A stretch of DNA of 64,000 nucleotides from an uncultured virus (IMG/VR IMGVR_UViG_3300021256_000068) (IMGVR_UViG_3300021256_000068); one strand, 5' to 3'; positions 1 to 64,000 are shown, numbered from the stretch's first letter. Numbers and translations: made by a program. The notes: generated from the sequence alone by a model not told the origin.

Positions 1-2
1 CA

Positions 3-296
3 GAAGAGAAGTTAGTTCCTGGTGGACCATTCGGTATGACAATGTACTCAAAGATTTTCAATCCAATGGGCAATATGGCAGGAGAGAATTCATTTGGTAA
101 TATGTTAATGATGCAAGCATTAATGGGTGATGATGGCTATGGTAATGGCAATGGTAATGGCTATGGTAATGGCAATAGTAATAATGGTTTGTTACTAGCT
201 ATGATGATGATGATGCAAGGTGGATTTAAGTTCCCTACATTTGAAATGCCAAACTTACCAACCGCAAGCGGCGAAAAAACTGCTGATAAGAAGTAA
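3..296 (+). CDS. Hypothetical protein, 5'-truncated by window; Met/Gly/Asn-rich low-complexity C-terminus
   Basis: Frame is open from the window edge; GYGNGN repeats; ends TAA. Confidence 0.7.
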   Translation, partial: EEKLVPGGPFGMTMYSKIFNPMGNMAGENSFGNMLMMQALMGDDGYGNGNGNGYGNGNSNNGLLLAMMMMMQGGFKFPTFEMPNLPTASGEKTADKK

Positions 297-302
297 TCTT
301 TG

Positions 303-331
303 TTGACAAAGACGAAAATTCATTATATAAT
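303..331 (+). promoter_or_regulatory. Sigma-A/70-type promoter
   Basis: TTGACA(303)-17 nt-TATAAT(326). Confidence 0.85.
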
Positions 332-354
332 ATAATTGTAAAAAATAAAAGAAA

Positions 355-547
355 GGTTAACTACCTGTAAAAAAATCGGTGAACCCAGTATGCAAATACC
401 GTGAGCGGGAAGAGTGGTTGAACTATGAATTTAGTTGATGCACTTTATCGGGTTAAACAGTTAGGGGAGAGCAAACCCTGCAGAATAGCGCCGCAGCGAT
501 AACAAGCTAATAGGTGGTGCGTAAAACCACCTCCTTCATTTAGGAGG
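355..547 (+). ncRNA. Structured 5' leader or small RNA, unassigned
   Basis: GC-richer non-coding stretch; helices TAACT/AGTTA, ACCTG/CGGGT, AGGTGG/CCACCT; CCTCCT/AGGAGG hairpin covers the SD of the next gene. Confidence 0.5.
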
Positions 548-552
548 TCTGT

Positions 553-1023
553 ATGAGAAAAAGATTGACTAAACAAGAGAAAAAGGATAGAAAACAATAC
601 CTTAAAACCTTTAAAAAGTACAAGAAAGAACTTATGGAAATAGTGAAAAAATATTACGGTCCATGGGATAATTTCTTAGGTAGTTTTTTTGAAGTTATAG
701 TTCAACATTGGAAGGATTATTATAAATTAGGTTATAATGTTTGGGGTATGGAAGTTAAAGATACACCTGAATTTGATGACCCTAACCGTCCAACAAGATA
801 TGAAATTGCTTGTGAATTAGAACGCCGCTATAAGGAGTGGCAAGATTTTTCTGGTATGGATTTAGTCCAATTAGAAGATGGAAAATGGGTAGCAAAATAT
901 CACAAGAGATATTTATTACCCGATGGAAAAATCAATATTGATTTGTTAAATCAAGACAATAGAGATTTAGAAAAGAATTTCTTTGATTATTACATAAAGT
1001 ATTCTCATGATATGTGGGATTAA
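553..1023 (+). CDS. Hypothetical protein
   Basis: 156-aa ORF with AGGAGG SD. Confidence 0.8.
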   Translation: MRKRLTKQEKKDRKQYLKTFKKYKKELMEIVKKYYGPWDNFLGSFFEVIVQHWKDYYKLGYNVWGMEVKDTPEFDDPNRPTRYEIACELERRYKEWQDFSGMDLVQLEDGKWVAKYHKRYLLPDGKINIDLLNQDNRDLEKNFFDYYIKYSHDMWD

Positions 1024-1035
1024 TCCCACTTAAAT

Positions 1036-1112
1036 AGTCTGTTGGTGGAATTGGTTAACACGTCGCCCTCTCAAGGCGAAGATTACGAGTTCGAGCCTCG
1101 TACGGACTACCA
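1036..1112 (+). tRNA. tRNA-Glu(CTC)
   Basis: Acceptor AGTCTGT/ACGGACT, anticodon arm TCGCC-CT CTC AA-GGCGA, GTTCGA T-loop, CCA end. Confidence 0.9.
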
Positions 1113-1278
1113 ATTTTGAAAAGTTTGAGAATTTTTGATATATTATTTTTGGATAGCTACCTGCAAAAAATTTCCTTTTCGACAGGTTCGTTAAGGTTAA
1201 ATAGCTAGGCATCACATACCTTGAATATTGTGCCCTAGGATATTGGGTTAAATATCTACTTTAAGGATTGGTGAGAAA

Positions 1279-5588: not shown

Positions 5589-5616
5589 AAAATGCGGCAA
5601 AAATAATAAAATAATA

Positions 5617-8663: not shown

Positions 8664-8679
8664 TAATGCCGCCTTAAAT

Positions 8680-44143: not shown

Positions 44144-44152
44144 AAAATTTCC

Positions 44153-44181
44153 TTGACAAAAGCGAAAAAATATAATATACT
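44153..44181 (+). promoter_or_regulatory. Sigma-A-type promoter
   Basis: TTGACA-17 nt-TATACT. Confidence 0.75.
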
Positions 44182-44227
44182 ATATTAGTAAAAGAAAATA
44201 ATAAAAAACAAAAGGACGGATTTAAAA

Positions 44228-44542
44228 ATGGAAGAAAACAAACAACAAACACCTCAATTCAATGGTTGGAAAGATGCAAAGATTGATGCAAATATGCCAA
44301 TTCAAGGAATTGTTGAATTATTAAATATTATTAATCAAAGATTAATTTTAATTGAAGACCAATTAACTATTAAAGTTGGTGAAGGTCAAAATATTACTTT
44401 AACTCAATATTGGATTGAAGTTCAAAAACAAGAATATCAAAGAATGATGGAAGAATATCAAAAGCAAATGGAAGCTCAAAAAGCACAAGCAAAAGAACAA
44501 GCTAATGAGCAACCAACTGAAAATCCATCAGAAGTACAATAA
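44228..44542 (+). CDS. Hypothetical Gln/Glu-rich protein
   Basis: 104-aa ORF between the topoisomerase subunit genes. Confidence 0.75.
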   Translation: MEENKQQTPQFNGWKDAKIDANMPIQGIVELLNIINQRLILIEDQLTIKVGEGQNITLTQYWIEVQKQEYQRMMEEYQKQMEAQKAQAKEQANEQPTENPSEVQ

Positions 44543-44564
44543 TTAAGAAAGGGCATAGATAACA

Positions 44565-48104: not shown

Positions 48105-48106
48105 TT

Positions 48107-48135
48107 GAAGGGGAGTAATCCCCTTCTTATTTTTT
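48107..48135 (+). terminator. Intrinsic terminator
   Basis: GAAGGGGA-GTAA-TCCCCTTC plus T-run. Confidence 0.75.
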
Positions 48136-48166
48136 CAAATGACAAACGATAGAGAGGAGAAGAATT

Positions 48167-49108: not shown

Positions 49109-49536
49109 TGGACCCAAAACTTTTTACTAAAACACAACTTGAAGAATTAATATTGGAGTTATCTGGATTAACTAAGATGACTCCAATGATTAATAGACAA
49201 ATTAGCCGCTTTGTTATTGACAATAAAATGTCATATCTAGAAATAGCAAGATGTGTAGATTATTATGTAGAAATTTTAGGACATGAAATTAAGCCAGAGT
49301 ATGGAATTGCTTTTGTTACAAGCATCCGTGAACCTGCGGCAGAATATTTTAAAAAGCTTGAGCTTGACAAGCAAAAACAGCAACAAGAAGCTGAAAAAGT
49401 TATTAAATATCAAGACAAGAATATTATTATCAACATAAAGTCGTATAATTTGTTAAATAAACCTAGACCGCCAAAGAGTTTTGATATGAGTGCGATAAAG
49501 GTTTGCGAAGATGACGACACAAACGATTCAAATTAA
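49108..49536 (+). CDS. Hypothetical protein upstream of the helicase
   Basis: GTG start overlapping the previous stop. Confidence 0.7.
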   Translation: MDPKLFTKTQLEELILELSGLTKMTPMINRQISRFVIDNKMSYLEIARCVDYYVEILGHEIKPEYGIAFVTSIREPAAEYFKKLELDKQKQQQEAEKVIKYQDKNIIINIKSYNLLNKPRPPKSFDMSAIKVCEDDDTNDSN

Positions 49537-49561
49537 ATAGAAGTAAAAAGGAGCAGGTCTG

Positions 49562-51166
49562 ATGTATCAAAAAGGTAAATTAGATAAATTATATGATAGC
49601 CAGGCAGCATTATATGTATTAAGTAGTATAATGAAAGACCCTCTTCTTATTCAGGACGACAGTTATGTATTGGACCCAACAGACTTTTTCAAGCCAATAC
49701 ATAAAATGATTTTTGTGGCAATTTACAATTTAGAGCAACAAGGAATTGAAGTTATTGAACCATCTGGCATTGATTTGTATTTAAGTCACTATGATGCGCA
49801 ATATAGTTTTTATAAGGCGCAAAATGGTTATTCTTTAGTACAAGAATGTTCTCGTATGGCTCTTAGTATGGACCCAAAAGAGTTTTTATACTATTATAAT
49901 CGTCTAAAAAAGTTTTCTTTATTAAGAGATTTAGAGAGTAGTGGAATTGATACTGGAACATTCTACAACACTGAAGTAAGTTCTTTAGATAAGGATGCAG
50001 AAGAGGATAAATTAGATAAAACACCAATACAAGCTATTCCTAATGCTGTTCGTGGCATTTTAGTTGATATAGAGAAAAAGCATATTGGAAAAGATAACGG
50101 AAGTGCTCAAAATGCAAGTAAAGGATTAAGAGATTTAGTTCAAAGATATAGAGAGATGCCTGAAGTTGGTTTACCACTTGAGGGTTCTATTGTTAATTTT
50201 GCATTAAGAGGTTTACGTTTAGGAAAATTATATACTTATTCGGCTCCTACAGGAGCAGGTAAAACTCGTTTTATGCTTAGTGCTGCAGCATCTATTAGTA
50301 TGCCATATATAGATAAAAATGGTCAAGTTGTAATGCGCGGCGAAGCAGGAGACGAATATGAAAAAGTTGTATTCGTAACAACCGAACAAGCTGCGGACGA
50401 AATACAAACTATGCTACTTGCTTATGTAAGCGGCGTTCCAGAGAATAAGGTTTTAATGGGAGATTATACTCCTGAAGAATTGGATAGAGTAAATAAAGCA
50501 TTAAATATTATAGATGCGCATCAAGACAATTTTATGATTGAAGCAGTTCCAGACCCATCAATTGCGGAAATAAAAGTCTTATTAACAAAATATATTATTC
50601 AAAACCAAGTCAGATATATATTCTACGATTACATTTTCTCAAGTCCAGGTCTATTGGGAGAATTTAGAGATGTAGGCGTTCGTGAAGATGTTGCATTAAT
50701 GATGTTATCAAATAGTTTAAAAGAGGTTGCGATGACTCACAATGTTCATATTACATCTGCGACACAATTGAATGAAAACTGGTCTAAAAAAGAAATCGGA
50801 CCACGTGACCAAAACTGTTTAAGAGGTTCAAAGGCTATTGCGGATAAAATTGACGGTGGTTTAATCGGTGTAAGATTGCAACCAGCTGAACGTGAAAAAA
50901 TTCAAGAAATTTGGAATAGAATTAAAGTAGCAAAAGGTTATGATAAAGACCCTAACATTGTAATAGATATTTATAAAAACAGACGTGGAGAATTAAACTG
51001 CGTTAAAATCTTTAGATATTTTGATTATGCAACTTGTCATTGTATTGATTACTTTGTAACTGATGGCGAATATCATACAGTTGAAAATGTAAAAGAAATT
51101 AAATGTGTAGAAAAAATTGTAGATTATAGTACATTAAAATACACAGAAGGGGAGAAGGTAGTATAG
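49562..51166 (+). CDS. dnaB: Replicative DnaB-like helicase
   Basis: APTGAGKT, FYDYI, SATQLN, LRGSKAIADKID, YKNRRG. Confidence 0.88.
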   Translation: MYQKGKLDKLYDSQAALYVLSSIMKDPLLIQDDSYVLDPTDFFKPIHKMIFVAIYNLEQQGIEVIEPSGIDLYLSHYDAQYSFYKAQNGYSLVQECSRMALSMDPKEFLYYYNRLKKFSLLRDLESSGIDTGTFYNTEVSSLDKDAEEDKLDKTPIQAIPNAVRGILVDIEKKHIGKDNGSAQNASKGLRDLVQRYREMPEVGLPLEGSIVNFALRGLRLGKLYTYSAPTGAGKTRFMLSAAASISMPYIDKNGQVVMRGEAGDEYEKVVFVTTEQAADEIQTMLLAYVSGVPENKVLMGDYTPEELDRVNKALNIIDAHQDNFMIEAVPDPSIAEIKVLLTKYIIQNQVRYIFYDYIFSSPGLLGEFRDVGVREDVALMMLSNSLKEVAMTHNVHITSATQLNENWSKKEIGPRDQNCLRGSKAIADKIDGGLIGVRLQPAEREKIQEIWNRIKVAKGYDKDPNIVIDIYKNRRGELNCVKIFRYFDYATCHCIDYFVTDGEYHTVENVKEIKCVEKIVDYSTLKYTEGEKVV

Positions 51167-51167
51167 T

Positions 51168-52250
51168 ATGCCAACATTAGCTGAATTAAGAGAACAATTA
51201 ACTGATGAAACAATTAAGGATATACTTATACAATATAATGTTGAACCAGTTAAAGAAGACGATGTTCAAATAGTATTCCCTACTTGTTGTCATAATTTAG
51301 AGGGCGGAAGTCCAAAATTATATTATTATAAAAATAATCACTTATTCCACTGTTATACTAAATGTAATAATAGTTTTGATATATTTGATTTGTTAATTAA
51401 GATGCATAAATTAAGAGGCGAAGAAATTACCCTTAAGCAAGCAATTAGTTTGTGTAATTTAGATACAAGTTATATGCAAGATGCAGATTTAGCAAGATAT
51501 AACATAAGTGATGATTTACGTTTTTTAAAAATAAGTAATAATCATAGATTGATAGATATAGATGAACTTCAATTTAAAATCTATGATAAAGATATATTAA
51601 GAAAATTCTCTTTTGATTATTTAGGTTTACAGCCTTGGATACAAGAAGGAATTAGCGTAGAAATGTTGCAAAAGTTCAATATTAAATGGGATTCTTTTAG
51701 ACAATGTATTATCATTCCTAATTTTGATATTAATGGCAATTTAATTGGACTAAGAGGAAGATTTTTCCGCACAGAAGATATTGCAAAAGGTAAATACAGA
51801 CCAATATATGACAATGGTACATTGTATAGTTACCCAACAGGAAAGAGCTTTTATGGTATTTATGAAAACCATAAAGCAATAGAAAGAAAGAAAATGTGTA
51901 TCATATTCGAAGGAGAAAAGAGCGTACTTTTATTCGGGTCTATTTATGGTGCAGATAATAATATTGCATTAGCAACATTAGGACAAAATATAACAAGAGA
52001 GCAAATTCAATATCTAAGACAAATGAGAGTAAGAGATGTAATCTTAGCATATGATACTGATTATGAAGATATAGAACAACTAAAAGAAGTAAAGCAAAAA
52101 TATATTGAAAAAGCAAAGATTTTTGCACCTTACTTTAATGTTAGTGTCTTAATTGACTATCATTTCTTATTACCATATAAAAGCAGTCCTATTGACGGTG
52201 GTAGAGAAATTTTTGAAAAAATATTAAGTGAACAATTAAAAGTAAGTTAG
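51168..52250 (+). CDS. dnaG: DNA primase (Zn finger plus TOPRIM)
   Basis: TCCHN...FHCYTKC, IIIP, IFEGEKS, AYDTD. Confidence 0.85.
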   Translation: MPTLAELREQLTDETIKDILIQYNVEPVKEDDVQIVFPTCCHNLEGGSPKLYYYKNNHLFHCYTKCNNSFDIFDLLIKMHKLRGEEITLKQAISLCNLDTSYMQDADLARYNISDDLRFLKISNNHRLIDIDELQFKIYDKDILRKFSFDYLGLQPWIQEGISVEMLQKFNIKWDSFRQCIIIPNFDINGNLIGLRGRFFRTEDIAKGKYRPIYDNGTLYSYPTGKSFYGIYENHKAIERKKMCIIFEGEKSVLLFGSIYGADNNIALATLGQNITREQIQYLRQMRVRDVILAYDTDYEDIEQLKEVKQKYIEKAKIFAPYFNVSVLIDYHFLLPYKSSPIDGGREIFEKILSEQLKVS

Positions 52251-52258
52251 AGGTAAAA

Positions 52259-54061
52259 ATGAAACCAATTAAGTTAAAACAAAACAGTTTAGAAAAAATA
52301 ACTATGAAAGACTATTTACAATTATGCGGCATCAATGAAGCTGATTGTGATAGTTTTATAGTAGCTCCAAAAGATTCTGACGAACTTAATCCAATTTTAT
52401 TAAAAAATATGCATCTTGCGGCGAAGACAGTGTATGAAAAATTAAATGATGATAATACAGTTGTCTTTGTTCAAGTTGATAGCGATATGGATGGTTGGAC
52501 ATCCGCTTGCGAATTTATCCAATATGTTCATATCCGTTTTCCTAAGATTAAGTTAATTTGGAGATTACATACAGGTAAACAGCATGGCGTTATTTTGGAC
52601 ACCGTTCCATCAGAAGCCAATTTAATCATTATTCCTGATGCAGGTTCAAATCAAGTTGAAGAATTAACCGCATTAGTTAATATGGGAAAGACTGTTGTAG
52701 TACTTGACCACCACCAAGTAGAAGATGAGATTGCGAGTGAAGCAAGCGGCGCAATTATCGTTAATAATCAAATGAGTCCAGACTTCCCTAATAAATCTTT
52801 AAGTGGTGCAGGTGTAGTTTATAAGTTCTTACAATATTTTGATACTTATTACTACAAATCTGATTTATATAAACAATTTGCAGATATTGCTACTTTTGGT
52901 ATATTAGCAGATGCAATGGATATGAGAACTTTAGATAATAACTTTATTGCATATGAAGGATTAAATCATATTCATAATAAACTAATCCGAGCAGTTATAA
53001 ATCGTCAAGCGGGAGATGGATTGTATGCGCGAATTGTAGATAAAGAGTCACCTACTAAAACTGAAGCAGTATTCTATGTTGCTCCTGTGTTTAATGGTTT
53101 AATTAGATATGGAGAACAAGAGGAAAAAGAAAAAGTATTTGATGCTTTTACTACTCCTGATAGTAGTGAAATAATTGAAACTATTTATAGAGGAACTAAA
53201 CGTAGTGAAAGCTTATATGATTATTGCGCGAGAATTGCAGTCAATGCAAAAAGTAGACAAGACAATGCGAAGAAAAAGAGTATGGCATTACTTGCTGAAA
53301 AAATTAATGAAGAAAATCACGACAAAGATAATTTAATTATAGTTACTCTATCTGGCAAAGAAACTGAAAAAGTTAGTCCAAATATTACAGGTCTTGTAGC
53401 TATGGATTTAGTTAAAGAATACAATCGTCCTGCTTTGGTTTTACGTGAAACTGAAGTTGATGGTAAAAAGCTATTTAGTGGTAGTGGTAGAAATGGTTGT
53501 TTTAGCGGTCTTGAAAGTTTATTAGATTTCTTACACGAAAGTAATTTAGTTGATTTCGCACAAGGTCATGATGGTGCTTTTGGTGTAATGGTTGAACCTG
53601 ATAAAGTTGAACAACTACGTGAGTATGCGGAAACTCATATTGATAAAAAAATGTTTGATGACCAAAACATTTTTGTTGATTATTATTTCTATGGATTAGA
53701 TAGTATAGATGTAAATGGACTTGCAGAGTTCGCTGAAGGACAAAAAATTTACTGCGGCACAATTCCTTCTCCAACTTTTGCATTTGAATTCGATATTGAT
53801 ACAAATGATTGTAGTTTAATGGGAAAAGAATCAAGTTCAATAAAATTTGCTAATAAATTCAATGATTTTATCGTATTTAAGCGTCCAGATATCGCCGCCT
53901 TAATTATGGACAATAGAGGAAGTAAAATTCACGTTACATTAGTAGGAAAACCTTCAATGTCACCATATGGTAGATTACAAATCACCGCTAGTGATTGTGA
54001 AGTTAGTAAAATAATAGCACAAACAACACCTGTAAAAAGGTCAGCATTAGATTTAATATAA
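52259..54061 (+). CDS. recJ: RecJ-like DHH ssDNA exonuclease
   Basis: DSDMDG, PDAG, LDHH, LSGAGVVYK, SGSGR, QGHDGAFG. Confidence 0.9.
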   Translation: MKPIKLKQNSLEKITMKDYLQLCGINEADCDSFIVAPKDSDELNPILLKNMHLAAKTVYEKLNDDNTVVFVQVDSDMDGWTSACEFIQYVHIRFPKIKLIWRLHTGKQHGVILDTVPSEANLIIIPDAGSNQVEELTALVNMGKTVVVLDHHQVEDEIASEASGAIIVNNQMSPDFPNKSLSGAGVVYKFLQYFDTYYYKSDLYKQFADIATFGILADAMDMRTLDNNFIAYEGLNHIHNKLIRAVINRQAGDGLYARIVDKESPTKTEAVFYVAPVFNGLIRYGEQEEKEKVFDAFTTPDSSEIIETIYRGTKRSESLYDYCARIAVNAKSRQDNAKKKSMALLAEKINEENHDKDNLIIVTLSGKETEKVSPNITGLVAMDLVKEYNRPALVLRETEVDGKKLFSGSGRNGCFSGLESLLDFLHESNLVDFAQGHDGAFGVMVEPDKVEQLREYAETHIDKKMFDDQNIFVDYYFYGLDSIDVNGLAEFAEGQKIYCGTIPSPTFAFEFDIDTNDCSLMGKESSSIKFANKFNDFIVFKRPDIAALIMDNRGSKIHVTLVGKPSMSPYGRLQITASDCEVSKIIAQTTPVKRSALDLI

Positions 54062-54073
54062 AAGGAGTTTACA

Positions 54074-54289
54074 ATGGAAGATTTAATGGAAACACAAAGC
54101 CGTCTTTGGGAACAAATAGAAAAAGAATATGGTATTAAATTCAAATTAGCAGATGGTAGTTTTAGACCTGTTAATGAATGGCTAGATGATATTTATCTAC
54201 AAAATCCTAGTCGTTTTGAAGAAATGATGGAAGATATATTTATTTATGGTGATGTTTTATTCGCCGATTTAATTGAACATAAGGAGTAA
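54074..54289 (+). CDS. Hypothetical protein
   Basis: AAGGAG SD; DGSFRPVNEWL. Confidence 0.7.
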   Translation: MEDLMETQSRLWEQIEKEYGIKFKLADGSFRPVNEWLDDIYLQNPSRFEEMMEDIFIYGDVLFADLIEHKE

Positions 54290-54292
54290 AAA

Positions 54293-54541
54293 ATGGATAA
54301 AACAATTAAAAATATTATTATTGATTATATAATGACAGCAATAATCTTTATCATATTAGAAACTATTCTAGTTGTAATCTCATATTACAATCCTAATTCT
54401 TGGTTAGCATCACATATAATTTATCGATATTGGTGGGCTTATGATTTAGGAGTCGTATTGGGATTATGTATTGTAGCATCAATTAAAATTGCTATTTATA
54501 TGTATAAGGTTAATCATAAAAAAGATAACGAAGAAAAGTAA
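54293..54541 (+). CDS. Small membrane protein
   Basis: Two hydrophobic helices; AAGGAG SD. Confidence 0.7.
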   Translation: MDKTIKNIIIDYIMTAIIFIILETILVVISYYNPNSWLASHIIYRYWWAYDLGVVLGLCIVASIKIAIYMYKVNHKKDNEEK

Positions 54542-54547
54542 TTTTCA

Positions 54548-54576
54548 TTGACAAACAGTAAAAAATATTCTATAAT
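54548..54576 (+). promoter_or_regulatory. Sigma-A-type promoter
   Basis: TTGACA-17 nt-TATAAT. Confidence 0.85.
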
Positions 54577-54603
54577 AATAATATAGAAAGGAAAAGTGAT
54601 ATT

Positions 54604-57600
54604 ATGAAAAGAGATTATATTTCTATTCATAACCACACTGAGTTCTCTAACATTAAAGTTATTGATAGTATCAATAGAGCTCCTGAGCTAATAGATTATG
54701 CTTGGGAGCTTAATTTAGGAGGATTAGCAATCACAGAACATGATTGTCTAAGTGGTGTAATTAAATTAATAGAAGCATATAGAAAAAAACTTGATAAGGA
54801 ATGGGAAGCCGCTTACCCTGATAAAGAAAATGTTCACGATTACGAACAAATGTCTAAAGATTTAGATTTTAAAGTAATTATTGGTAATGAGATTTATCTT
54901 AGTGAAGAAGGATTATGCGAAGGTGGCTATGGTCATTTTTGGCATTTAATTTTATTAGCAAAAGATGAAGAAGGTTGGAAACAATTAAAGCAATTAAGTT
55001 CTGCCGCATGGAAACGTGCTTGGTTTAGAGGAATTTTAAGAACTCCAACATATCCAAGTGATTTATTTGAGTTTGTTAAAGGTGGACATTTAATTTGTTC
55101 TACTGCTTGTTTAGGTAGTTATCCAGCTTGGTGTTGGAAACAAATAAGTAATATTAGTGACGATGCAGATGAGTGGGATTTAGATTATGACTATAATGAA
55201 GATGGAACTAAGACTTTAAAAGATAAACAGTATTATTTAGATAAGTTAGATAATCATCTTGCCGCAATGGAAGAGTTATTTGGTGTAGGAAACTTTTTTA
55301 TTGAACTTCAACCAAATGAACTCGGTAGCGAACAAAATGAATATAATGAGTTTATGATTAATAGATATAAGGGACAATATCCTTTTGTATTTAGTACTGA
55401 CTCTCATTATATGAAAGAAGATTTAAGACAAATCCATACCGATTTCTTAGCATCAAAGAGTTCAGAAGATAGAGAAATAACATCTTTCTATAAGTATGCT
55501 TATATGATGAGCCAAGAAGAAGTTCATAGCCGTATGATTGATTATATGACAGAAGAATTCTTTGAAGATATGGTTAAAAACACAAAATATATTGGCGAAC
55601 AATGTCATTATTATCCTCTTGAACAACCAAAAGTTATTGCAAAAGTAGAATATGAGCATTATGATGAATACGAGTCTGATTTGGAAGTATTCAATGATGT
55701 AACTGCGGACGAATATCCATATTTTTATGAATATTTGCACACAGATAATAGAGCAGACCATTATTTTATGGAATTAATAGCCCATGGTTTTATTAATAAG
55801 TATCAAGAAAGTTGGGATACTGAAGTTTATTATAAGCGACTTGAAGAAGAACTATGGACAATTAGAGAAGTAGGTAACGGTATCAATCAATCAATGAGTG
55901 ATTACTTTACTTGTATGAGTAAAATGGTTAACTTGATGTGGGAAGCCGGTTCTTTAGTTGGTCCAAGCCGTGGTTCAGCAGGAGCATTATTAATAAATTA
56001 TTTATTAGATATAACACAAATAGACCCAATCTTTTTAGATTTACCTTATGTATGGCGTTTTATGCACCCATCTAGACCTGACTATCCAGATATTGACGTT
56101 GACTCTGAGTCAGATAAGCGTCAAGCAGTATTTAATAAAATAAGAGATTATTTTAGAAGTATTGGTGGAGATGTTATTAACGTTTGTACATTTGGTACTG
56201 AAGGAACTAAGTCCGCATTAAAAACTGCGGCAAGAGGTCTTAATATTAACTTAGATGAAGTTGCTTATGTAAGTTCAATGGTTCCAAATGAAAGAGGTTT
56301 TGATTGGAGCTTACATGATTGTTATTATGGTAATGGCGACGATCGTATGCCTATTAGTGCGTTCAAAAAAGAAATGGATGCAAATCCGCAATGGTGGAAA
56401 TTAGCACAAAGTATTGAAGGATTAGTAACTAGACTTGGTGTTCACGCATCAGGAGTTGTCTGTGTTAATGGAGATTTCATTGAACACGGAAGTTATATGA
56501 AGACAAATAGTGAGCAATTAGTAACTGCATTTGACTTACATGACCAAGAAAAATGTGCATTAATTAAATATGATATGTTAACTGTTTCCGCACTTGACCG
56601 TATTCATCAATGTATGAATTATATGTTGGAAACAGGAGATATGGAATGGAAAGGTTCATTAAAAGAAACTTATGATTATTATATCAATCCTAATAAGTTA
56701 GATTACGAGACACCTGAAATGTGGGATATGGCAGCTCAAGGTAAAATTAGAGCGTTATTCCAGTTCGATACAATCGTAGGTGGTCAAAGTATTAAGTATA
56801 TTGAGCCTAAAAACTTACAACAATTAGCTATCGCAAACTCAATAATGAGACTAATGGCACCAGAGGGTGAAGACCAGCCAATAGATATTTATGTAAAATA
56901 CAAAAGAGTTCCGCAATTATGGTATAATGATATGAAAAATGCGGGATTAAATGATGATGAGATAAAAGTGCTTGAAAAGTATTTAAAAGTTAAAAATGGT
57001 GTTGCTGACTCACAAGAAGTAGTTATGCAATTATCAATGGACCCACAAATTAGTGGATTCTCAATGAAAGACGCCAATAGATTAAGAAAGATTATTGCAA
57101 AGAAAAACTTCAAAGATATTGAAAGTATGCATGAGTTCTATCTTGAAAGCGGCGCAAAACTTGGTACAAGTAAAGCAATGTTAAATTATGTTTGGGATAA
57201 ACAATTTAAGTTATCATTTGGTTATTCATTCTCTACAATTCACACTACTGGTTATAGCGTTATTGCCGTTCAAGAAATGAATTTAGCTTATCATTATCCA
57301 TCAATTTATTGGAACTGTGCTTGTTTAAGTGTAGATAGTAGTGCAATTAGTGCGCAAGACTTCTATAATTTAATTGATGATGGTGTAATTGAAGTTGATG
57401 AAGATGAAAAGAAAAAAGTAGCAAGTAAGATGGATTATTCAAAGATTGCGGCAGCACTTAGTGACTTCCGTAATAGTACATCAATTTTATTGCCAGATGT
57501 AAATAAGTCAAGATTAAGTTTTACACCAGATGCAGAAGATAACACAATTTTATATGGTTTAAAAGGTATCACAAAAGTAACTGACCCAGCAATAGAAGAA

Positions 57601-58644
57601 ATAATGATGAATAGACCATTCGCATCATTAAATGACTTTTTAGATAGAACAACTAAAAAGACAGTGTCATCTGATAAAGTATTAAACTTAATTAAAGCAG
57701 GTGCATTTAATGAAATTGAGGGTAAGTCAACAAGAGAAATATTAACTAAATATATTGATATGACAAGTGATAAAAAGAATAGGTTAACTCTTCAAAATGC
57801 AAATGCGTTAATAGATAGAAACTTGTTTCCTGATGAATTATATAAAGAGTGTGAAGTATATAAATTAACAAAAGAATTAAGAAAACATAGAACTGCGGAT
57901 AAACTTTGGTATAGAGTAGATTTTAGTTTCCCAGGAGAAAAAGAAGATATTTGGAGAGAAGTATTTAAAGCTTCTAATCCAAAGATTGAATATATTGATG
58001 ATGCTCCAGTTATCAACTCTGATGCTTGGGATAATTATTATGACCGCAATATGGATAAGTTAAGAGTTTATATTAAGAATAATAGTGCGGAATTATTAGA
58101 GAAATTAAATAACTCATTATTCCAAGAAAGATGGGATAAATATTGTCAAGGAGATGAACTTGATTGGCAACTTGAAAGTTTAAACTTCTTCTTTGATGGT
58201 CACCCATTAAGTATTGCCGCGCGTGAACTTGGTATAGAGTTAACTCCTTTAAAATATTTAGAGGAAGATGCACAAGACGGATTTTTTGTTATAAAAGGTA
58301 AAGAAATACCTAAGATGAAATTATATAGTATTGCGGGAACAGTTATTGATAGTAATACAACAAAAGGTACTGTAACTATTCAAACTCCAGATGGCGTTAT
58401 AACATTAAAGATTTTTAAGAGTTTATATGCAATCTTTGATAAAGTAGTATATAGCGCAGATGGAATGGAAATAGTTCAAGATAGTTTCTTCGCAAAAGGA
58501 ACAAATCTATTAGTCACTGGTATTAAAAGAGGTTCAACTTTTGTTCCTAAGGTATACAAATCAACAGGTAGAAAAGCAATATTAAAAATAAACTTAACTG
58601 AAGATAGACATTTTAAAAACTTTGAAGAAAAAATGGAGGCTTAA
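54604..58644 (+). CDS. dnaE: DNA polymerase III alpha subunit (family C)
   Basis: PHP HNHTEFS and TDSHY, GPSRGSAG, PDIDVD, GVHASGV, KYDML, YSFSTIH. Confidence 0.95.
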   Translation: MKRDYISIHNHTEFSNIKVIDSINRAPELIDYAWELNLGGLAITEHDCLSGVIKLIEAYRKKLDKEWEAAYPDKENVHDYEQMSKDLDFKVIIGNEIYLSEEGLCEGGYGHFWHLILLAKDEEGWKQLKQLSSAAWKRAWFRGILRTPTYPSDLFEFVKGGHLICSTACLGSYPAWCWKQISNISDDADEWDLDYDYNEDGTKTLKDKQYYLDKLDNHLAAMEELFGVGNFFIELQPNELGSEQNEYNEFMINRYKGQYPFVFSTDSHYMKEDLRQIHTDFLASKSSEDREITSFYKYAYMMSQEEVHSRMIDYMTEEFFEDMVKNTKYIGEQCHYYPLEQPKVIAKVEYEHYDEYESDLEVFNDVTADEYPYFYEYLHTDNRADHYFMELIAHGFINKYQESWDTEVYYKRLEEELWTIREVGNGINQSMSDYFTCMSKMVNLMWEAGSLVGPSRGSAGALLINYLLDITQIDPIFLDLPYVWRFMHPSRPDYPDIDVDSESDKRQAVFNKIRDYFRSIGGDVINVCTFGTEGTKSALKTAARGLNINLDEVAYVSSMVPNERGFDWSLHDCYYGNGDDRMPISAFKKEMDANPQWWKLAQSIEGLVTRLGVHASGVVCVNGDFIEHGSYMKTNSEQLVTAFDLHDQEKCALIKYDMLTVSALDRIHQCMNYMLETGDMEWKGSLKETYDYYINPNKLDYETPEMWDMAAQGKIRALFQFDTIVGGQSIKYIEPKNLQQLAIANSIMRLMAPEGEDQPIDIYVKYKRVPQLWYNDMKNAGLNDDEIKVLEKYLKVKNGVADSQEVVMQLSMDPQISGFSMKDANRLRKIIAKKNFKDIESMHEFYLESGAKLGTSKAMLNYVWDKQFKLSFGYSFSTIHTTGYSVIAVQEMNLAYHYPSIYWNCACLSVDSSAISAQDFYNLIDDGVIEVDEDEKKKVASKMDYSKIAAALSDFRNSTSILLPDVNKSRLSFTPDAEDNTILYGLKGITKVTDPAIEEIMMNRPFASLNDFLDRTTKKTVSSDKVLNLIKAGAFNEIEGKSTREILTKYIDMTSDKKNRLTLQNANALIDRNLFPDELYKECEVYKLTKELRKHRTADKLWYRVDFSFPGEKEDIWREVFKASNPKIEYIDDAPVINSDAWDNYYDRNMDKLRVYIKNNSAELLEKLNNSLFQERWDKYCQGDELDWQLESLNFFFDGHPLSIAARELGIELTPLKYLEEDAQDGFFVIKGKEIPKMKLYSIAGTVIDSNTTKGTVTIQTPDGVITLKIFKSLYAIFDKVVYSADGMEIVQDSFFAKGTNLLVTGIKRGSTFVPKVYKSTGRKAILKINLTEDRHFKNFEEKMEA

Positions 58645-61482: not shown

Positions 61483-61496
61483 TATTATCTACCTCA

Positions 61497-61892
61497 TTAG
61501 TTTAATTTATTTTTTGCATTATTAATTTGAACTTCAGCTTGTTGCTTAATCCAAGCTTCTAAATCACCATAATTTGCTACAATATAATCTTTTGCTTGTT
61601 GTGTTAAAGTACCTTTTACATAATCAACGGTCTTCTTCATTGCAGCCGCTTGTGCTTCTTTATCCCATACAGTTGTGCCTTTAATTGCTTCAACGTATGT
61701 TTGATAAGTATATTTTACACCATCAAATACAATATCTTTTGCACCAGAAAGAATTTTTTGAATTTTCTCATCTTTAATACCTGCAATCTTTGCATTTACC
61801 CATCTAACTATGAAACCACCTACAACAGTAAGCACTGTGGTAATTACCCAAAATGCAATTTGATTTGCTAAATTTTCAAACATAATATTCAT
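61497..61892 (-). CDS. Putative holin (LL-H-like)
   Basis: N-terminal TM helix followed by VKYTYQTYVEAIK...WDKEAQ. Confidence 0.6.
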   Translation of the reverse strand: MNIMFENLANQIAFWVITTVLTVVGGFIVRWVNAKIAGIKDEKIQKILSGAKDIVFDGVKYTYQTYVEAIKGTTVWDKEAQAAAMKKTVDYVKGTLTQQAKDYIVANYGDLEAWIKQQAEVQINNAKNKLN

Positions 61893-61903
61893 CCCCTATC
61901 CAA

Positions 61904-62341
61904 TTATTTAATTAAAGCTAAAACTACAGCGGTAACGGCAGTTAATACTGCTGTAATAGTTGCGGCAAAAAATGCTCATTTACCCTTAATAGTCTCTTTT
62001 CTCTCTTCAGAAGTTGTTTGTTGTTGTTCTTGTATCGCTTTCATCTGACCTTCTAGTTTACTAATTTTATCTTCTAGTTCGTCTGTTTTCTTAAAAAGTT
62101 CTTTTGTTCTATTCTTATTATCTACATAGTGAATAGTGTCTTTCTCTTCAATCTCTTTAATTGTTTCACCTTGAGTTGTTTGTAAATTTAATAACTTCCC
62201 TTGATTAATAACTACATCATCTAATTTTTTAGATATATTGTCTAAAGATTTCGAAGTTAAAGCCAAACTAGATTCTGTCTTTCCTATACTTTCCGTAAGA
62301 GAGAATAGACGCGCGAGTACTGTTTGTTCGTCCATTATCAT
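61904..62341 (-). CDS. Coiled-coil protein with C-terminal TM helix (XhlA-like lysis-cassette protein; 145 aa, TGA at 61976)
   Basis: GGTGGTGA SD; readthrough adds (W)AFFAATITAVLTAVTAVVLALIK. Confidence 0.7.
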
Positions 62342-62459
62342 ATAATCACCACCGCAATAAATGCCTCTCTTATTCTACTTTTATTATAGTTCGTTTCTAC
62401 GAAATTAGCAATTTTCGGAAAACAAGATTATACTATTTATGTGTAAGGAGATGATAATT

Positions 62460-62633
62460 ATGGAAATTACCATTAACGGAATAGAAAAAAATATTAGCGA
62501 CTTTTCAACTGATGTATTATCAGTAGAAGAAAAGAGAATTGAAAGAAAAATGTTTAATATGGAATTTGTTTCTGATGAAGAACAAGCCGCTTTTATTGCT
62601 ATTAAAGAAGAATTAGAAAGAAGAAGTGAGTAA
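62460..62633 (+). CDS. Hypothetical protein
   Basis: AAGGAG SD. Confidence 0.6.
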   Translation: MEITINGIEKNISDFSTDVLSVEEKRIERKMFNMEFVSDEEQAAFIAIKEELERRSE

Positions 62634-62635
62634 TT

Positions 62636-63364
62636 ATGGCAAAGTTATCTGCGGAAAAAATTAATGAAGAATTACGCAAAAAAGACTTTGAATTAGTTGA
62701 TTGTAGTGGATATGAAAATTTAACAAGTTTTATCACAGTCAAATGTCCTAAAGGTCATATTACTCAAACTAATTTAAAAAGTTTTAGACACGAAAGTTAT
62801 CAATGTCCAGAGTGCGATAAAAGTATAGATTTTAGCAATCCTACTGAAGTTCCTGATAAAGGAGGCAAATTTCGTGTAATTGCTTTCGACCAAGCAACTG
62901 AACACTTTGGATTGAGTATTTTTGATGATGGAAAATTAATATACTATAAATTATTTGTATTTACTGGCTCTGCTATCAATAGAATGGTAAAGATTAGAAA
63001 AATGATAGATGAACTTGTAATTAAACAATGAAAACCAAATTATATTGTTTTTGAAGATATACAATATCAAAATGGATATATTACTTTCAAAACTCTTGCT
63101 ATGTTATTAGGTGTAGTTCACGAAGTATGTCAAGCTAATGACATTCCTTTTGAATGTGTTAGTCCTAACGTATGACGTAAATATGCGGGAACGTGCGGCA
63201 AAACTAGACAGGAAGAGAAAATGTTGTCGATAGCAGTAGTAAAAGAAAAGTATAATGTATCTGTAACTGATGACGTTGCGGAAGCAATATTGATTGGTAG
63301 ATACGGTGCAGCGCACCATTACGCTGAAGCACCAATATTATTTGGAAAGAAAAAAACCTCTTAA
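62636..63364 (+). CDS. ruvC: RuvC-like Holliday junction resolvase with N-terminal Zn finger (242 aa, 2 TGA)
   Basis: CPKGH..CPEC; IAFDQAT, IVFEDIQ, SPNV(W)RK, DDVAEAILIG. Confidence 0.8.
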
Positions 63365-63381
63365 TTGAGGTTTTATTTTTT
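63353..63381. terminator. Bidirectional terminator
   Basis: AAAACCTC/GAGGTTTT between convergent genes. Confidence 0.65.
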
Positions 63382-64000
63382 ATTTTTGGATTAACTTGTT
63401 TACTAATTCACTTAATTGATTTATTTGTTCTTGTTGCTTATCAATTATTTCTTGTTGTTCTTGAATAGCCTTCCAAGCAATATACACAAGCTTTGACTCT
63501 TTTACTGTCATATAATTGCCATTTTCGCCGCTTGCCTGTGGATTACATACAAGACCGAAATCACCAGCTGAAACATTTAATGCTTCTTGAGCAATAATAC
63601 CTATTGAATCTGAACCATCTGACTTATATTTGAAATTATAAATTGGAAGAGCTTTGATAAGACCTAATGCAGAGAAAGTAGAGCGAGTAATATTTGTTTT
63701 TGCTCGTTTATCTGATGTCGCATTGAAATATAATGCTTGAACATAGTTATCTACATCAATATATCCATTAGCATTACTGCTGTTTTTTCTAACTCTGATA
63801 TAGTCATGTACATATAATGGACAGTCTGTCAAAATTTTAGTTTGTTCTATACTAGAGCTAGATGAATAGCTACCACTAGTATCGACAAAACAAGCAACTG
63901 AAAAACCTTTATAAACATCTACGTTGTTAGTTTTTCCTTTCAAACCAAACCAAATTGGATTATCATATGCATTAGTATTATTGTAAAGTCTAGATGGACT
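63380..64000 (-). CDS. Tail fibre/spike C-terminus with intramolecular chaperone (peptidase S74-like) domain; 5'-truncated by window
   Basis: TSDKRAKTNI, IGIIAQE, AIQEQQ coiled coil; frame open to the window edge. Confidence 0.85.
   Translation of the reverse strand, partial: SPSRLYNNTNAYDNPIWFGLKGKTNNVDVYKGFSVACFVDTSGSYSSSSSIEQTKILTDCPLYVHDYIRVRKNSSNANGYIDVDNYVQALYFNATSDKRAKTNITRSTFSALGLIKALPIYNFKYKSDGSDSIGIIAQEALNVSAGDFGLVCNPQASGENGNYMTVKESKLVYIAWKAIQEQQEIIDKQQEQINQLSELVNKLIQK

What the first reader, a model, noticed from the sequence alone, without database searches (positions are those of the whole stretch)
1..64000. Strong genome-wide over-representation of GCGGC/GCCGC (GCSGC; core GCGG/CCGC)
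Seen: manual count of 12 sites in 42194-46802 (42341, 42669, 43143, 44045, 44055, 44901, 45750, 45906, 46047, 46387, 46518, 46759), where under 1 is expected at ~30% GC. The AT-richer GCWGC occurs only about four times there. Sites arise in Ala-Ala, Cys-Gly, Ser-Gly and Arg-Arg codon pairs, on both strands, and between genes (5594, 8668, 22987), so they are not simply protein-driven. Known: Bacillota Chi sites contain GCGG (B. subtilis AGCGG, S. aureus GAAGCGG). Inference: Chi-like protection from AddAB, a modification or self-recognition mark, or a dispersed protein-binding site.
Basis: partly seen in the sequence, partly recalled or inferred. Interest (0 to 1): 0.7.

Follow-up and report, generated by a model that had tools for sequence, protein, structure and literature searches.

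The report
Iterated GCSGC word in phage DNA
A gut phage related to Bacillus phage SPbeta keeps the five-letter DNA word GCGGC/GCCGC about ten times more often than chance, written mainly into silent codon positions on both strands, so something appears to read the DNA itself, though what reads it is not yet known.

Summary
GCGGC (69) plus GCCGC (49) give 118 sites in 64 kb against about 11 expected. In 50 ORFs the count is 77 against 16.8 under a synonymous-codon shuffle (z 17), making it the most over-represented 5-mer. Its one-letter neighbour GCWGC is the most depleted (17 vs 47.4).

- **Placement:** sites lie on both strands, in all usable frames and between genes. Spacing is Poisson-like.
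- **Asymmetric flank:** GCGGC-R-N-N-A, with A at the fourth base after the word in 83 of 118 sites.
- **Retention:** silent G/C letters inside sites are kept better between relatives (75% vs 55%).
- **Relatives:** the word is shared by relatives down to 60% polymerase identity. More distant lineages carry other GC-only words (CGCGC up to about 7 per kb) or none.
- **Controls:** SPbeta and AT-rich Clostridia show the opposite pattern.
- **Methyltransferase:** none is encoded in the window or in two complete relatives.
- **Chi:** there is no orientation bias, so the known phage Chi pattern is not met.

Best reading (about 0.4): a positively maintained recognition word for a DNA-reading protein, alongside restriction-type avoidance of GCWGC. 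The reader protein and its function are unknown. The closest known case is the HIP-type GCsGC of Cyanothece.

The parts
1..64000 (.). 118 dispersed GCSGC sites (69 GCGGC, 49 GCCGC on the + strand), about 1.84 per kb, in every 4-kb bin (4-14 per bin)
   Evidence: Counts and bins. Top 5-mers under M0/M1/M2. 77 vs 16.8 under synonymous shuffle in 50 ORFs. Spacing not different from random: cv 0.96 vs 0.99, gaps under 50 bp 5 vs 10.1.
42194..46802 (+).
   Evidence: Coordinates verified. Gene identity.
5594..5598 (+). Intergenic GCGGC followed by an A run, just 3' of tRNA-Met (5514-5588)
8668..8672 (-). Intergenic site (GCCGC on +) just before tRNA-Trp (8680-8753)
22987..22991 (+). Intergenic GCGGC
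44045..44059 (-). Closest pair of sites (GCCGC at 44045 and 44055, 10 bp apart); such close pairs are rare
47208..58644 (+). Context: phage replication module in the SPbeta yorF-yorL order (unknown protein, Sak4-like, unknown, DnaB-like, primase, RecJ-like, PolIII-alpha-like). It carries sites at the usual density and encodes candidate DNA-acting readers.
   Evidence: PHROG/Pfam hits. SPbeta order from the annotation. Polymerase 36-37% identical to SPbeta YorL.

Best explanation
GCSGC is a real, DNA-level iterated word of this phage lineage. It is written mostly into silent codon positions and kept there. The phage resembles SPbeta in its replication module (polymerase 36-37% identical, same gene order), encodes no detectable methyltransferase and comes from ruminant gut samples. 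Its sequence is shaped in two ways. (1) It purges short palindromes (GATC, CATG, GTAC, TCGA, GGCC, CCGG) and, most strongly of all 5-mers, GCWGC; I read this as restriction-site avoidance. (2) It positively maintains the S-centred form GCSGC at about 1.8 per kb on both strands. The second effect is not just what is left when GCWGC is avoided. The xGC-GGC frame is enriched about 8-fold and cannot arise from GCWGC by silent changes, and total GCNGC is also in excess. The word is read asymmetrically: T before it, then GCGGC, R, N, N, A. I therefore think it is the recognition word of a protein that reads duplex DNA anywhere in the genome, in either orientation. Shown: the enrichment, both-strand placement, flank, retention, lineage specificity and absence of a phage methyltransferase. 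Within this reading I cannot choose between a self-mark or DNA-organising site, a replication or priming signal, and a recombination signal.
For: - **Enrichment under codon-aware nulls:** 77 vs 16.8 (z 17.4), top of all 5-mers.
- **Not a by-product of GCWGC avoidance:** by frame, xGC GGC is 27 vs 3.2, xGC CGC 6 vs 0.3 and xxG CCG C 5 vs 0.7. In the xGY-GGN table, CC is 27, CT 4, TT 28 and TC 8. GCNGC in total is 94 vs 64.0+-2.5.
- **Ala-Ala pairs:** the first codon ends in G/C in 69% of 56 pairs vs 19% overall.
- **Both orientations:** sense O/E 3.9, antisense 6.7. Stretches outside ORF calls hold 16 vs 2.1.
- **Flank (oriented as GCGGC):** the next base is never C (0 of 118) and is R in 100 of 118. 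A at the fourth base after the word occurs in 83 of 118, and T before it in 58 of 118.
- **Flank by frame:** the A holds in sense frame 0 (14 of 17), sense frame 1 (19 of 27) and antisense frame 0 (19 of 22), against 35-42% background.
- **Flank in independent relatives:** 69%, 64% and 53%, but not after GCGGT, GCAGC or GGCGG (40-42%).
- **Centre-flank coupling in Ala-Ala sites:** Fisher p 0.008 and 0.005.
- **Retention:** third-position G/C inside sites is conserved in 69 of 92 cases between the window and an 88%-identical relative, against 861 of 1570 elsewhere (p 1.3e-4). Inside GCGG that is not GCSGC it is 33 of 60.
- **Relatives at 60% polymerase identity:** 16 of 39 window sites with unchanged amino acids are again GCSGC, 6 of them with the centre flipped.
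- **Lineage specificity (79 related loci):** GCCGC is the top word in 10, CCGCA in 14 and CGCGC in 7, and a group of 12 shows no GC-only word. CGCGC/GCGCG occurs at 7-59 per 4 kb (at least 12 in 23 of 24 bins) across a 94-kb relative.
- **Controls lack it:** SPbeta has GCSGC O/E about 1 and GCWGC about 3. An AT-rich Clostridia genome (32.5% GC, 400 kb) has 111 GCSGC and 759 GCWGC. Bacterial loci under 31% GC among 80 examined have GCSGC O/E 0-1.6. None of 151 Clostridia genomes combines phage-like density with a high pattern/control ratio.
- **No phage methyltransferase found:**
Against: - No reader protein is identified, and no window ORF has a domain that points to one.
- At maximal Markov order the 5-mer is explained by its 4-mers, so part of the signal is a broader GCGG/CGGC excess. 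TGCGG/CCGCA (74 vs 21.5) and GCGGA/TCCGC (49 vs 22.3) are also enriched.
- The flank A fails in one small class: antisense frame 1, 0 of 6.
- Orientation flips at homologous positions (6 of 16). These fit a symmetric reader or a mutational drive better than an asymmetric site.
- Spacing is random, with no sign of selection for even coverage.
- In relative G001 a 12-kb head-gene block and a 3-kb block have 4 and 1 sites and many GCWGC (25 and 5). A reader that needs sites everywhere would not allow this.
- Only 9.5% of site positions (17 of 179) are shared with 60%-identity relatives. The density is kept, not individual sites, as also expected from biased mutation or repair.
- The host is unknown, so a host-imposed cause is not excluded. 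151 genomes is a thin sample of Clostridia, and other classes were not sampled.
- My ORF set is a crude longest-ORF call under table 11 in a phage that reads TGA through in some genes.
Confidence: 0.4

Rival explanations
1. Methylation-linked repair ratchet (the HIP model). A host m5C methyltransferase with GCSGC specificity, plus methyl-directed or very-short-patch mismatch repair, converts one-off sequences into GCSGC during phage replication. The word then accumulates without any function of its own.
For: - GCsGC is the most over-represented palindromic 5-mer in Cyanothece PCC 7822, which carries GCsGC-specific methyltransferases. HIP words occur at 1000-2000 per Mb (PMC4390886, passages read); the window has 1844 per Mb.
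- GCSGC methyltransferases exist, e.g. M.CglI and M.NgoAVII (PMC4267653, passages).
- The transition neighbour GCWGC is the most depleted 5-mer. This is what repair of a T:G mismatch at the centre would give.
- One-off intermediates GCGGT (4) and GTGGC (8) are scarce in the xGY-GGN table.
- Random spacing, high turnover of positions and centre flips fit a drive.
- Words enriched in related lineages (CGCGC, GCGCC, CCGCG) look like typical m5C methyltransferase targets.
Against: - No C5 methyltransferase is found in the window or in nine related contigs, two of them complete.
- No bacterial genome sampled shows the signature.
- Other transition neighbours (GTGGC/GCCAC 16 vs 17.6, GCGGT/ACCGC 16 vs 15.8, GCGAC/GTCGC 14 vs 13.4, ACGGC/GCCGT 9 vs 9.5) are not depleted.
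- The asymmetric flank and the enrichment of GCGGA are not expected for a GCSGC methyltransferase site.
- Mismatch repair in Bacillota is not methyl-directed (established knowledge, recalled).
- A uniform mutational drive does not by itself explain the site-free head block of G001.
Confidence: 0.2
2. Chi-like signal. The word, or its GCGG core, is recognised by the host AddAB/RecBCD-type helicase-nuclease. It protects phage DNA ends and promotes recombination. Both orientations are needed because ends are not fixed (permuted genome, random breaks).
For: - The word is GC-rich and asymmetric once the flank is counted.
- The phage is SPbeta-like, so its host is probably in Bacillota.
- Phages with abundant Chi exist (PMC12315714, passages; PMC3784561, listing only).
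- Words with a GCGG core are enriched across many related lineages.
Against: - There is no orientation bias and no clustering towards an end. Chi-rich phages show 20 of 23 and 32 of 32 in one orientation and terminal clustering. SPbeta itself has AGCGG 33 vs CCGCT 4 without over-representation.
- GCGG outside GCSGC shows no extra retention.
- Orientation flips at homologous sites.
- The phage has its own recombination genes (Sak4-like, RecJ-like, UvrD-like), unlike the Chi-rich class described.
- Palindromic (CG)n words at about 7 per kb in related lineages do not look like Chi.
Confidence: 0.12
3. Pure side effect of restriction avoidance. The phage avoids GCWGC and many other sites, and the rare G/C-ending codons it still uses simply pile up in the few permitted contexts.
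For: - There is strong avoidance of GATC (11 vs 80.8), CATG (32 vs 87.6), GTAC, TCGA, GGCC and GCWGC (17 vs 47.4).
- In Ala-Ala pairs the loss of W-centred forms (17 seen vs about 44 expected) nearly equals the gain of S-centred forms (39 vs about 12).
- The absence of C after GCGGC is explained by GGCC avoidance.
Against: - Non-Ala-Ala frames give 38 sites vs 4.2 expected and cannot come from silent replacement of GCWGC.
- GCNGC in total is in excess (94 vs 64.0).
- The word survives the dinucleotide-preserving shuffle.
- The flank signal, the better retention of the silent letters, and the excess outside ORFs where GCWGC is not depleted (14 vs 4.6) are unexplained.
Confidence: 0.1
4. Start or recognition site of the phage's own replisome, e.g. 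a template word for the DnaG-like primase. A GC-rich short primer is stable in AT-rich DNA, so sites are selected to about one per kb per strand.
For: - The phage encodes its own DnaB-like helicase, primase, RNase H, ligase and polymerase.
- Per-strand density is one per 0.9-1.3 kb, in the range of Okazaki fragment sizes (recalled).
- T7 primase reads pentameric template words (title and abstract of PMC2910064 in the listing; details recalled).
- A lineage-specific word could track a lineage-specific primase.
Against: - Spacing is random rather than even.
- G001 has a 9-kb stretch with no site on either strand.
- About 7 CGCGC per kb in a related lineage is far more than priming needs.
- There is no direct evidence of any kind.
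Confidence: 0.08

Closest known systems
Highly iterated palindromes (HIP1 GCGATCGC) and the 'alternative HIP' GCsGC of Cyanothece PCC 7822 (Elhai 2015, PMC4390886; passages read)
   Same: It is the same five-letter word, GC-only and quasi-palindromic. It is the most over-represented word of its genome, at a density in the stated HIP range (1000-2000 per Mb; here 1844). It lies inside genes on both strands, and different related genomes carry different GC-rich words.
   Different: Here the carrier is a phage, not a cyanobacterium. No cognate methyltransferase is found in the phage or in two complete relatives, whereas every HIP-rich cyanobacterium in that study had one. The word carries an asymmetric flank, and the W-centred sister word is strongly depleted.
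Chi sites and Chi-rich phages (LLS, MD8; PMC12315714, passages read)
   Same: A short GC-rich word, greatly enriched in a phage genome, plausibly read by a DNA-processing enzyme.
   Different: Chi-rich phages carry the word almost only in one orientation, clustered near one end, and lack recombination genes. Here both orientations are equally enriched, placement is uniform, and recombination genes are present.
Restriction-site avoidance in phages (PMC6286503, search listing only); GCWGC is the site of TseI/ApeKI-type enzymes (recalled)
   Same: The depletion of GCWGC, GATC, CATG, GTAC, TCGA, GGCC and CCGG under a codon-aware null fits this known strategy in a phage without its own methyltransferase.
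   Different: Avoidance explains the depleted words, not the 4.6-fold excess of GCSGC.
GCSGC/GCNGC-reading enzymes: CglI and NgoAVII (methyltransferase reads GCSGC, nuclease reads GCCGC asymmetrically; PMC4267653, passages); prophage methyltransferase M.BatI, GCDGC (PMC8936443, abstract); the methyltransferase mtbP of SPbeta (annotated; its GGCC/GCNGC specificity is recalled)
   Same: These show that proteins can tell GCSGC from GCWGC and can read GCCGC in an oriented way. They also show that SPbeta-type phages deal with GCNGC sites.
   Different: Those are modification or cleavage targets that phages protect or avoid. No such enzyme is encoded here, and the sites are accumulated rather than avoided.

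Membership tests
Chi-type recombination hotspot as seen in Chi-rich phages | Word present predominantly in one orientation relative to the DNA end or the direction of replication | tested here: not met
   69 vs 49 on the two strands against 6.6 vs 4.5 expected from composition. O/E is 3.9 sense and 6.7 antisense under the codon null. Reference phages show 20 of 23 and 32 of 32.
Chi-type recombination hotspot as seen in Chi-rich phages | Recognised by the host RecBCD/AddAB enzyme, and over-represented and skewed in the host genome | not testable with these tools
   The host is unknown. No polymerase relative was found in 399 sampled Clostridia genomes. An AT-rich Clostridia genome taken as an example shows no excess beyond composition.
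Chi-type recombination hotspot as seen in Chi-rich phages | Clustering towards the open genome end | tested here: not met
   4-14 sites in every 4-kb bin of the window; uniform in complete relative G005. The window itself is not a complete genome.
HIP-type highly iterated palindrome | GC-rich short (quasi-)palindrome that is the outlier among words of its length, at about 1000-2000 per Mb, inside genes | tested here: met
   Top 5-mer under M0, M1, M2 and the codon shuffle; 1844 per Mb; 102 of 118 sites in ORFs.
HIP-type highly iterated palindrome | A methyltransferase able to methylate the word is encoded in the same genome | tested here: not met
   No PF00145 in G001-G009. No PF01555 in G001-G004. 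No methyltransferase family among 81 window ORFs or 126 ORFs of complete relative G005. The host genome was not testable.
HIP-type highly iterated palindrome | One-off variants depleted, as expected from a ratchet | tested here: inconclusive
   Only the centre variant GCWGC is depleted (17 vs 47.4); the other transition neighbours are at expectation. GCGGT and GTGGC are low in the xGY-GGN table.
Restriction-site avoidance (for the GCWGC part) | Depletion of the site against a codon-aware null, together with other short palindromes | tested here: met
   GCWGC 17 vs 47.4 (z -9.3); GATC 11 vs 80.8; CATG 32 vs 87.6; GTAC 57 vs 93.7; TCGA 28 vs 55.0; GGCC 5 vs 19.4.
Restriction-site avoidance (for the GCWGC part) | Host carries a restriction enzyme for the avoided site | not testable with these tools
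   Host unknown.
SPbeta-like phage (context) | PolIII-alpha-type polymerase (YorL) with the yorF-yorL replication gene order | tested here: met
   Polymerase 36-37% identical over 98% of its length to SPbeta-group YorL. The same order of Sak4-like, helicase, primase-like, RecJ-like and polymerase genes is seen. This is a distant relative, not a member of the genus.

The most novel reading that the evidence does not exclude
A whole family of SPbeta-like gut phages, which also reassign stop codons, each maintain a lineage-specific GC-only 'signature word' in an AT-rich genome at 2-8 copies per kb. Examples are GCSGC here, (CG)n in another lineage and GGCGC/CCGCG-type words in others. The word works without any methyltransferase. 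It would be a sequence-encoded self mark read by a phage protein, for example to tell phage DNA from host DNA during host DNA breakdown, replication restart or packaging. Its specificity would drift between lineages.
Probability: 0.2. Interest if true: 0.85.

Novelty: new variant of a known kind. Interest (0 to 1): 0.62.

Why it matters
Over-represented short words are among the few ways to find DNA-reading systems from sequence alone; Chi, uptake sequences, KOPS and HIP1 were found this way. Here an AT-rich phage spends rare codons to keep about 200 copies per genome of a GC-only word, and its relatives keep other words at up to about 7 per kb. None of them encodes the methyltransferase that the only published model for such words requires. 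If a phage protein reads the word, this is a new kind of sequence-encoded identity mark in phages. If a host enzyme imposes it, the word becomes a host-prediction signal for uncultured gut phages and a test case for the HIP ratchet model outside cyanobacteria. Either way, the paired signal (GCSGC up, GCWGC down) is a clean, quantitative phenotype for experiments.

Tried and rejected
- **Whole genome of the window:** not held. 'Genome-wide' had to be tested on relatives.
- **Near-identical phage records:** none in the phage collection.
- **Host through the PFL gene:** the best homologues (77-80%) are in uncultured Clostridia of 44-61% GC. These show only GCSGC O/E 1.3-2.3, although two share the strong GGCC/CCGG avoidance. 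This is not enough to name a host.
- **Host through prophage relatives:** no polymerase match at E<=1e-80 in 399 sampled Clostridia genomes; 2 further genomes were not scored.
- **Pattern scan of 151 Clostridia genomes:** pattern/control ratios of 3-5.6 occur only in genomes with 20-100 sites per Mb, and dense genomes have ratios near 1. The apparent one-strand runs in some genomes turned out to be composition skew when 400 kb of one genome was analysed.
- **Regular spacing:** rejected.
- **Position within genes:** uniform, KS p 0.99.
- **Head-gene block of G001 as a recent import:** it still avoids GATC, CATG, GGCC and CCGG, though GATC less strongly, so import is not supported. Stronger codon selection in late genes is my guess and was not tested.
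- **Sequencing runs:** 20 rows from 14 studies hold the stretch (animal gut, sheep and bovine by label). All are kept as contigs, so read ends, nicks or modification could not be examined, and I did not lay them.
- **Earlier notes of this scan:** nothing on this genome.
- **Literature searches:** 'GCGGC' + overrepresented + phage, 'GCSGC', GCWGC/avoidance/phage, primase recognition/overrepresented/bacteriophage and Chi/phage genomes. None returned a report of GCSGC enrichment in a phage. This covers only the held library.
- **Left open:** a table of extended IUPAC patterns against the shuffle null was not obtained. The flank signal therefore rests on frame-specific backgrounds and control words, not on shuffled sequences.
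- **Translation-level (codon-pair) cause:** rejected, because the antisense orientation and non-coding sites show the same excess.

Full report
**What the window is.** It is 31.3% G+C with a steady G>C skew and genes almost all on the + strand up to about 60 kb.
- It carries seven tRNA genes, a tmRNA and a ROOL RNA.
- It carries a replication and nucleotide-metabolism block: UvrD-like helicase, RNase H, ATP ligase, NrdD, a pyruvate formate-lyase, two topoisomerase II subunits, Sak4-like protein, DnaB-like helicase, primase, RecJ-like exonuclease and a 1346-aa PolIII-alpha-type polymerase.
- The polymerase is 36-37% identical to YorL of the Bacillus SPbeta group, and the gene order matches SPbeta yorF-yorL. 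This is a distant SPbeta-like phage.
- No whole genome is held.
- Close relatives are viral contigs G001 (79 kb) and G002 (73 kb), about 88-89% identical over 27-37 kb. G003, G005, G006 and others are about 60% identical in the polymerase.
- Runs holding the stretch are animal gut metagenomes, sheep and bovine by label. All are kept as contigs only.

**The observation.**
- GCGGC occurs 69 times and GCCGC 49 times, against 6.6 and 4.5 expected from composition. They are the two top 5-mers under order-0, order-1 and order-2 Markov models.
- Among the 32 G/C-only 5-mers they stand alone at about 10-fold. The next are CGGCG (5.6) and CGCCG (4.2), which overlap them. Words with GGCC, CCGG, GGG or CCC are depleted.
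- Under the maximal-order model the 5-mers are explained by their 4-mers, so GCGG, CCGC, CGGC and GCCG already carry the excess.

I used 50 ORFs of at least 100 aa.

| Null model | GCGGC observed vs null | GCCGC observed vs null |
|---|---|---|
| Synonymous-codon shuffle | 44 vs 11.7 | 33 vs 5.0 |
| Dinucleotide-preserving synonymous shuffle | 44 vs 19.6 | 33 vs 15.1 |
| Codon-order permutation | 44 vs 7.3 | 33 vs 3.4 |

Ranked over all strand-symmetrised 5-mers under the synonymous shuffle, GCSGC is first (77 vs 16.8, z 17.4) and GCWGC is last (17 vs 47.4, z -9.3).

**Other word biases.** The same null shows heavy avoidance of GATC (11 vs 80.8), CATG (32 vs 87.6), GTAC, TCGA and GGCC. No methyltransferase turned up among 81 window ORFs. 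This is the usual picture of a phage that escapes restriction by losing sites, and I read the GCWGC depletion in that light.
- In Ala-Ala pairs the first codon ends in G or C in 69% of 56 cases against 19% overall.
- That swap accounts for the in-frame sites (GCG GCN 17 vs 8.2; GCC GCN 22 vs 3.9).

**Avoidance of GCWGC does not explain the rest.**
- The frame xGC GGC has 27 sites against 3.2 expected, xGC CGC 6 vs 0.3 and xxG CCG C 5 vs 0.7. None can be reached from GCWGC by silent change.
- In xGY-GGN pairs the two silent letters are coupled (CC 27, CT 4, TT 28, TC 8).
- GCNGC as a whole is in excess (94 vs 64.0+-2.5), and stretches outside my ORF calls hold 16 GCSGC vs 2.1 expected while GCWGC there is not depleted (14 vs 4.6).
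- No other single-step neighbour is depleted. GCGGA/TCCGC (49 vs 22.3) and TGCGG/CCGCA (74 vs 21.5) are also enriched.

**Anatomy of a site.** Oriented as GCGGC, the base before is T in 58 of 118 sites. The next base is never C and is A or G in 100 of 118. The fourth base after the word is A in 83 of 118, against 37% background.
- The A holds where it falls on a third codon position (14 of 17), on a first position (19 of 27) and, as T, on a third position of the opposite orientation (19 of 22). It fails in a class of six (0 of 6) and is 3 of 5 in another.
- It recurs in sequence not homologous to the window: the late half of G001 (69% of 54 sites), G003 (64% of 44) and L004 (53% of 19). After GCGGA it is 55%. 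After GCGGT, GCAGC and GGCGG it is 40-42%.
- In Ala-Ala sites the choice of G or C at the centre goes with the side on which the A/T lies (Fisher p 0.008 and 0.005).
- The word is therefore read, or created, asymmetrically. 72 of 118 sites fit GCGGC-R-N-N-A.
- I could not finish a test of these extended patterns against shuffled genes.

**Placement.**
- Sites are in every 4-kb bin.
- Gap statistics match random placement: cv 0.96 vs 0.99; gaps under 50 bp 5 vs 10.1, P 0.048.
- Sites are uniform along genes (KS p 0.99). They are as dense inside ORFs as outside: 102 of 118 in 82% of the bases.
- The strand ratio 69:49 equals the ratio expected from the G>C skew. Against the codon null the antisense form is, if anything, more enriched.

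**Evolution.**
- Between the window and G002 (87.6% identity over 37 kb), GCGGC is intact in 29 of 46 and GCCGC in 25 of 35 aligned sites. This compares with 58% for all 5-mers, 33% for GGCGG and 38% for GCGCA.
- Third-position G/C letters inside sites are conserved in 69 of 92 cases, against 861 of 1570 elsewhere (p 1.3e-4). Those in GCGG outside the 5-mer are conserved in 33 of 60, so the 5-mer, not GCGG, is the retained unit.
- Against eight relatives at about 60% polymerase identity, only 17 of 179 site comparisons are again GCSGC. Where the amino acids are unchanged the figure is 16 of 39, six of them with G and C swapped at the centre.
- Density is therefore maintained, positions turn over, and orientation is not fixed.

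**Relatives and controls.**
- All loci at 59% polymerase identity or more have GCSGC at 4-13 times expectation. In the complete relative G005, 27 of 29 4-kb bins hold 5-23 sites against 1.0-4.3 expected.
- G001 has an exception. Its head-gene block (39-51 kb) holds 4 sites and 25 GCWGC, and the 60-63 kb block holds 1 site and 5 GCWGC, mostly GCT GCN on the coding strand. That block still avoids GATC, CATG, GGCC and CCGG, though GATC less strongly.
- Across 79 related loci the top word is GCCGC in 10, CCGCA in 14 and CGCGC in 7. Twelve loci of one group show no GC-only word and do not avoid GATC.
- In G008, CGCGC/GCGCG runs at 7-59 per 4 kb over 94 kb (at least 12 in 23 of 24 bins), with GCGCGC 49 vs 0.7 expected in 24 kb.
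- SPbeta itself has GCSGC at expectation and GCWGC at about 3-fold.
- A 32.5% G+C Clostridia genome has 111 GCSGC and 759 GCWGC in 400 kb, against 118 and 37 in the 64-kb window.
- Bacterial loci under 31% G+C have GCSGC O/E 0-1.6 and GCWGC 1.9-5.9.
- None of 151 Clostridia genomes combines a high density with a high ratio to the control pattern.

**What reads it.** No C5 methyltransferase family match exists in nine related contigs, two of them rated complete. There is no N4/N6 family match in four, and none in Pfam scans of the window (81 ORFs) and of G005 (126 of 130 ORFs called).
- The published model for such words needs a cognate methyltransferase. That model is Elhai's HIP ratchet, which names GCsGC in Cyanothece PCC 7822 and a density of 1000-2000 per Mb. 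Only a host enzyme could supply one here, and no sampled bacterium shows the signature.
- The Chi reading fails its best-documented hallmark in phages, which is one orientation and terminal clustering. A two-orientation version for variable ends stays possible.
- I therefore favour a recognition word for a lineage-specific reader of duplex DNA, at about 0.4, and I rank the rivals in the fields above. That a protein reads the word, and every proposed function, is inference.

**Limits.**
- ORFs were called crudely under table 11, although this phage reads TGA through in some genes. The 50 ORFs used are open frames of at least 100 aa and should be in the right frame, but some are fragments.
- The window is not a whole genome.
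- W, G001 and G002 are not independent of each other.
- Host identity, methylation and binding were not testable.

Noticed in passing
window 25775-25870 (+); ORFs 15566-17320, 23215-23916, 23939-24925, 29770-32718, 38678-40705, 41375-42040, 58647-59762, 60394-61482 (-), 62636-63364: A 96-nt tRNA with anticodon TCA (called tRNA-SeC by ARAGORN, tRNA by Rfam), together with genes that become long open frames only if TGA is read through (1-11 in-frame TGA each; for example a 982-aa frame with 11). The replication genes have none. This looks like partial TGA recoding with a phage suppressor tRNA.
   Followed up: partly
G001 27-65 kb, G006 1-32 kb (TGA); G008 28-94 kb (TAG): In relatives, coverage by open frames of at least 150 codons jumps when one stop is read through: G001 late region 0.63 to 0.96 with TGA, G006 0.61 to 0.96 with TGA, G008 0.31 to 0.74 with TAG. 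Different lineages of this phage family seem to reassign different stops.
   Followed up: partly
window 4615-5198 (+): Full-length ROOL RNA (Rfam RF03087, 166 bits, gathering 99.1) in the poorly coding, GC-richer first 5.4 kb, beside the tmRNA and tRNA genes.
   Followed up: no
window 3672-4064 (+): Phage-borne tmRNA; predicted tag peptide ANSINMAAVAAMNAPRAYAFA, ending in AFA rather than the common LAA.
   Followed up: no
window 38191-40705 (+): A cluster of glycyl-radical pieces: an 80-aa 4Fe-4S fragment, a 77-aa stand-alone glycyl-radical domain, and a pyruvate formate-lyase. The lyase is 570 aa under table 11 and 675 aa with one TGA read through. It is 77-80% identical to PFL of uncultured Clostridia of 44-61% G+C.
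   Followed up: partly
whole window, coding part: Strong depletion under the codon null of GATC (11 vs 80.8), CATG (32 vs 87.6), GTAC, TCGA, GGCC, GANTC-type and GGATG words, and of A6/T6 runs (79 vs 168.8).
   Followed up: partly
G008 (loci L185-L189; also L157, L154, L127): A related lineage carries CGCGC/GCGCG at 7-59 per 4 kb (at least 12 in 23 of 24 bins) across 94 kb, with GCGCGC and CGCGCG about 70 times expectation in the 24-kb locus. Both strands are equal. This is a much denser GC-only word than in the window.
   Followed up: partly
L097 (G006), 20-kb locus: GGACC is the top word (58 vs 10.4). Unlike GCSGC it is strongly one-stranded (52:6) and sits in a long conserved context, i.e. 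a dispersed or tandem repeat of another kind.
   Followed up: no
L190, L191 (Bacillus phage SPBc2, 100 kb): In SPbeta, AGCGG outnumbers its complement 33 to 4 without being over-represented. TACTA-type words are the most depleted (72 vs 195 and 49 vs 188).
   Followed up: no
G001 39-51 kb and 60-63 kb (loci L006-L008): Head-gene blocks of a close relative lack both the GCSGC excess and the GCWGC depletion, while the rest of that genome has them.
   Followed up: partly
window 268 and 41021: Two sites share a longer identical context (about 18 bases around the word), unlike the other sites, whose flanks are diverse. This may be a small repeat.
   Followed up: no
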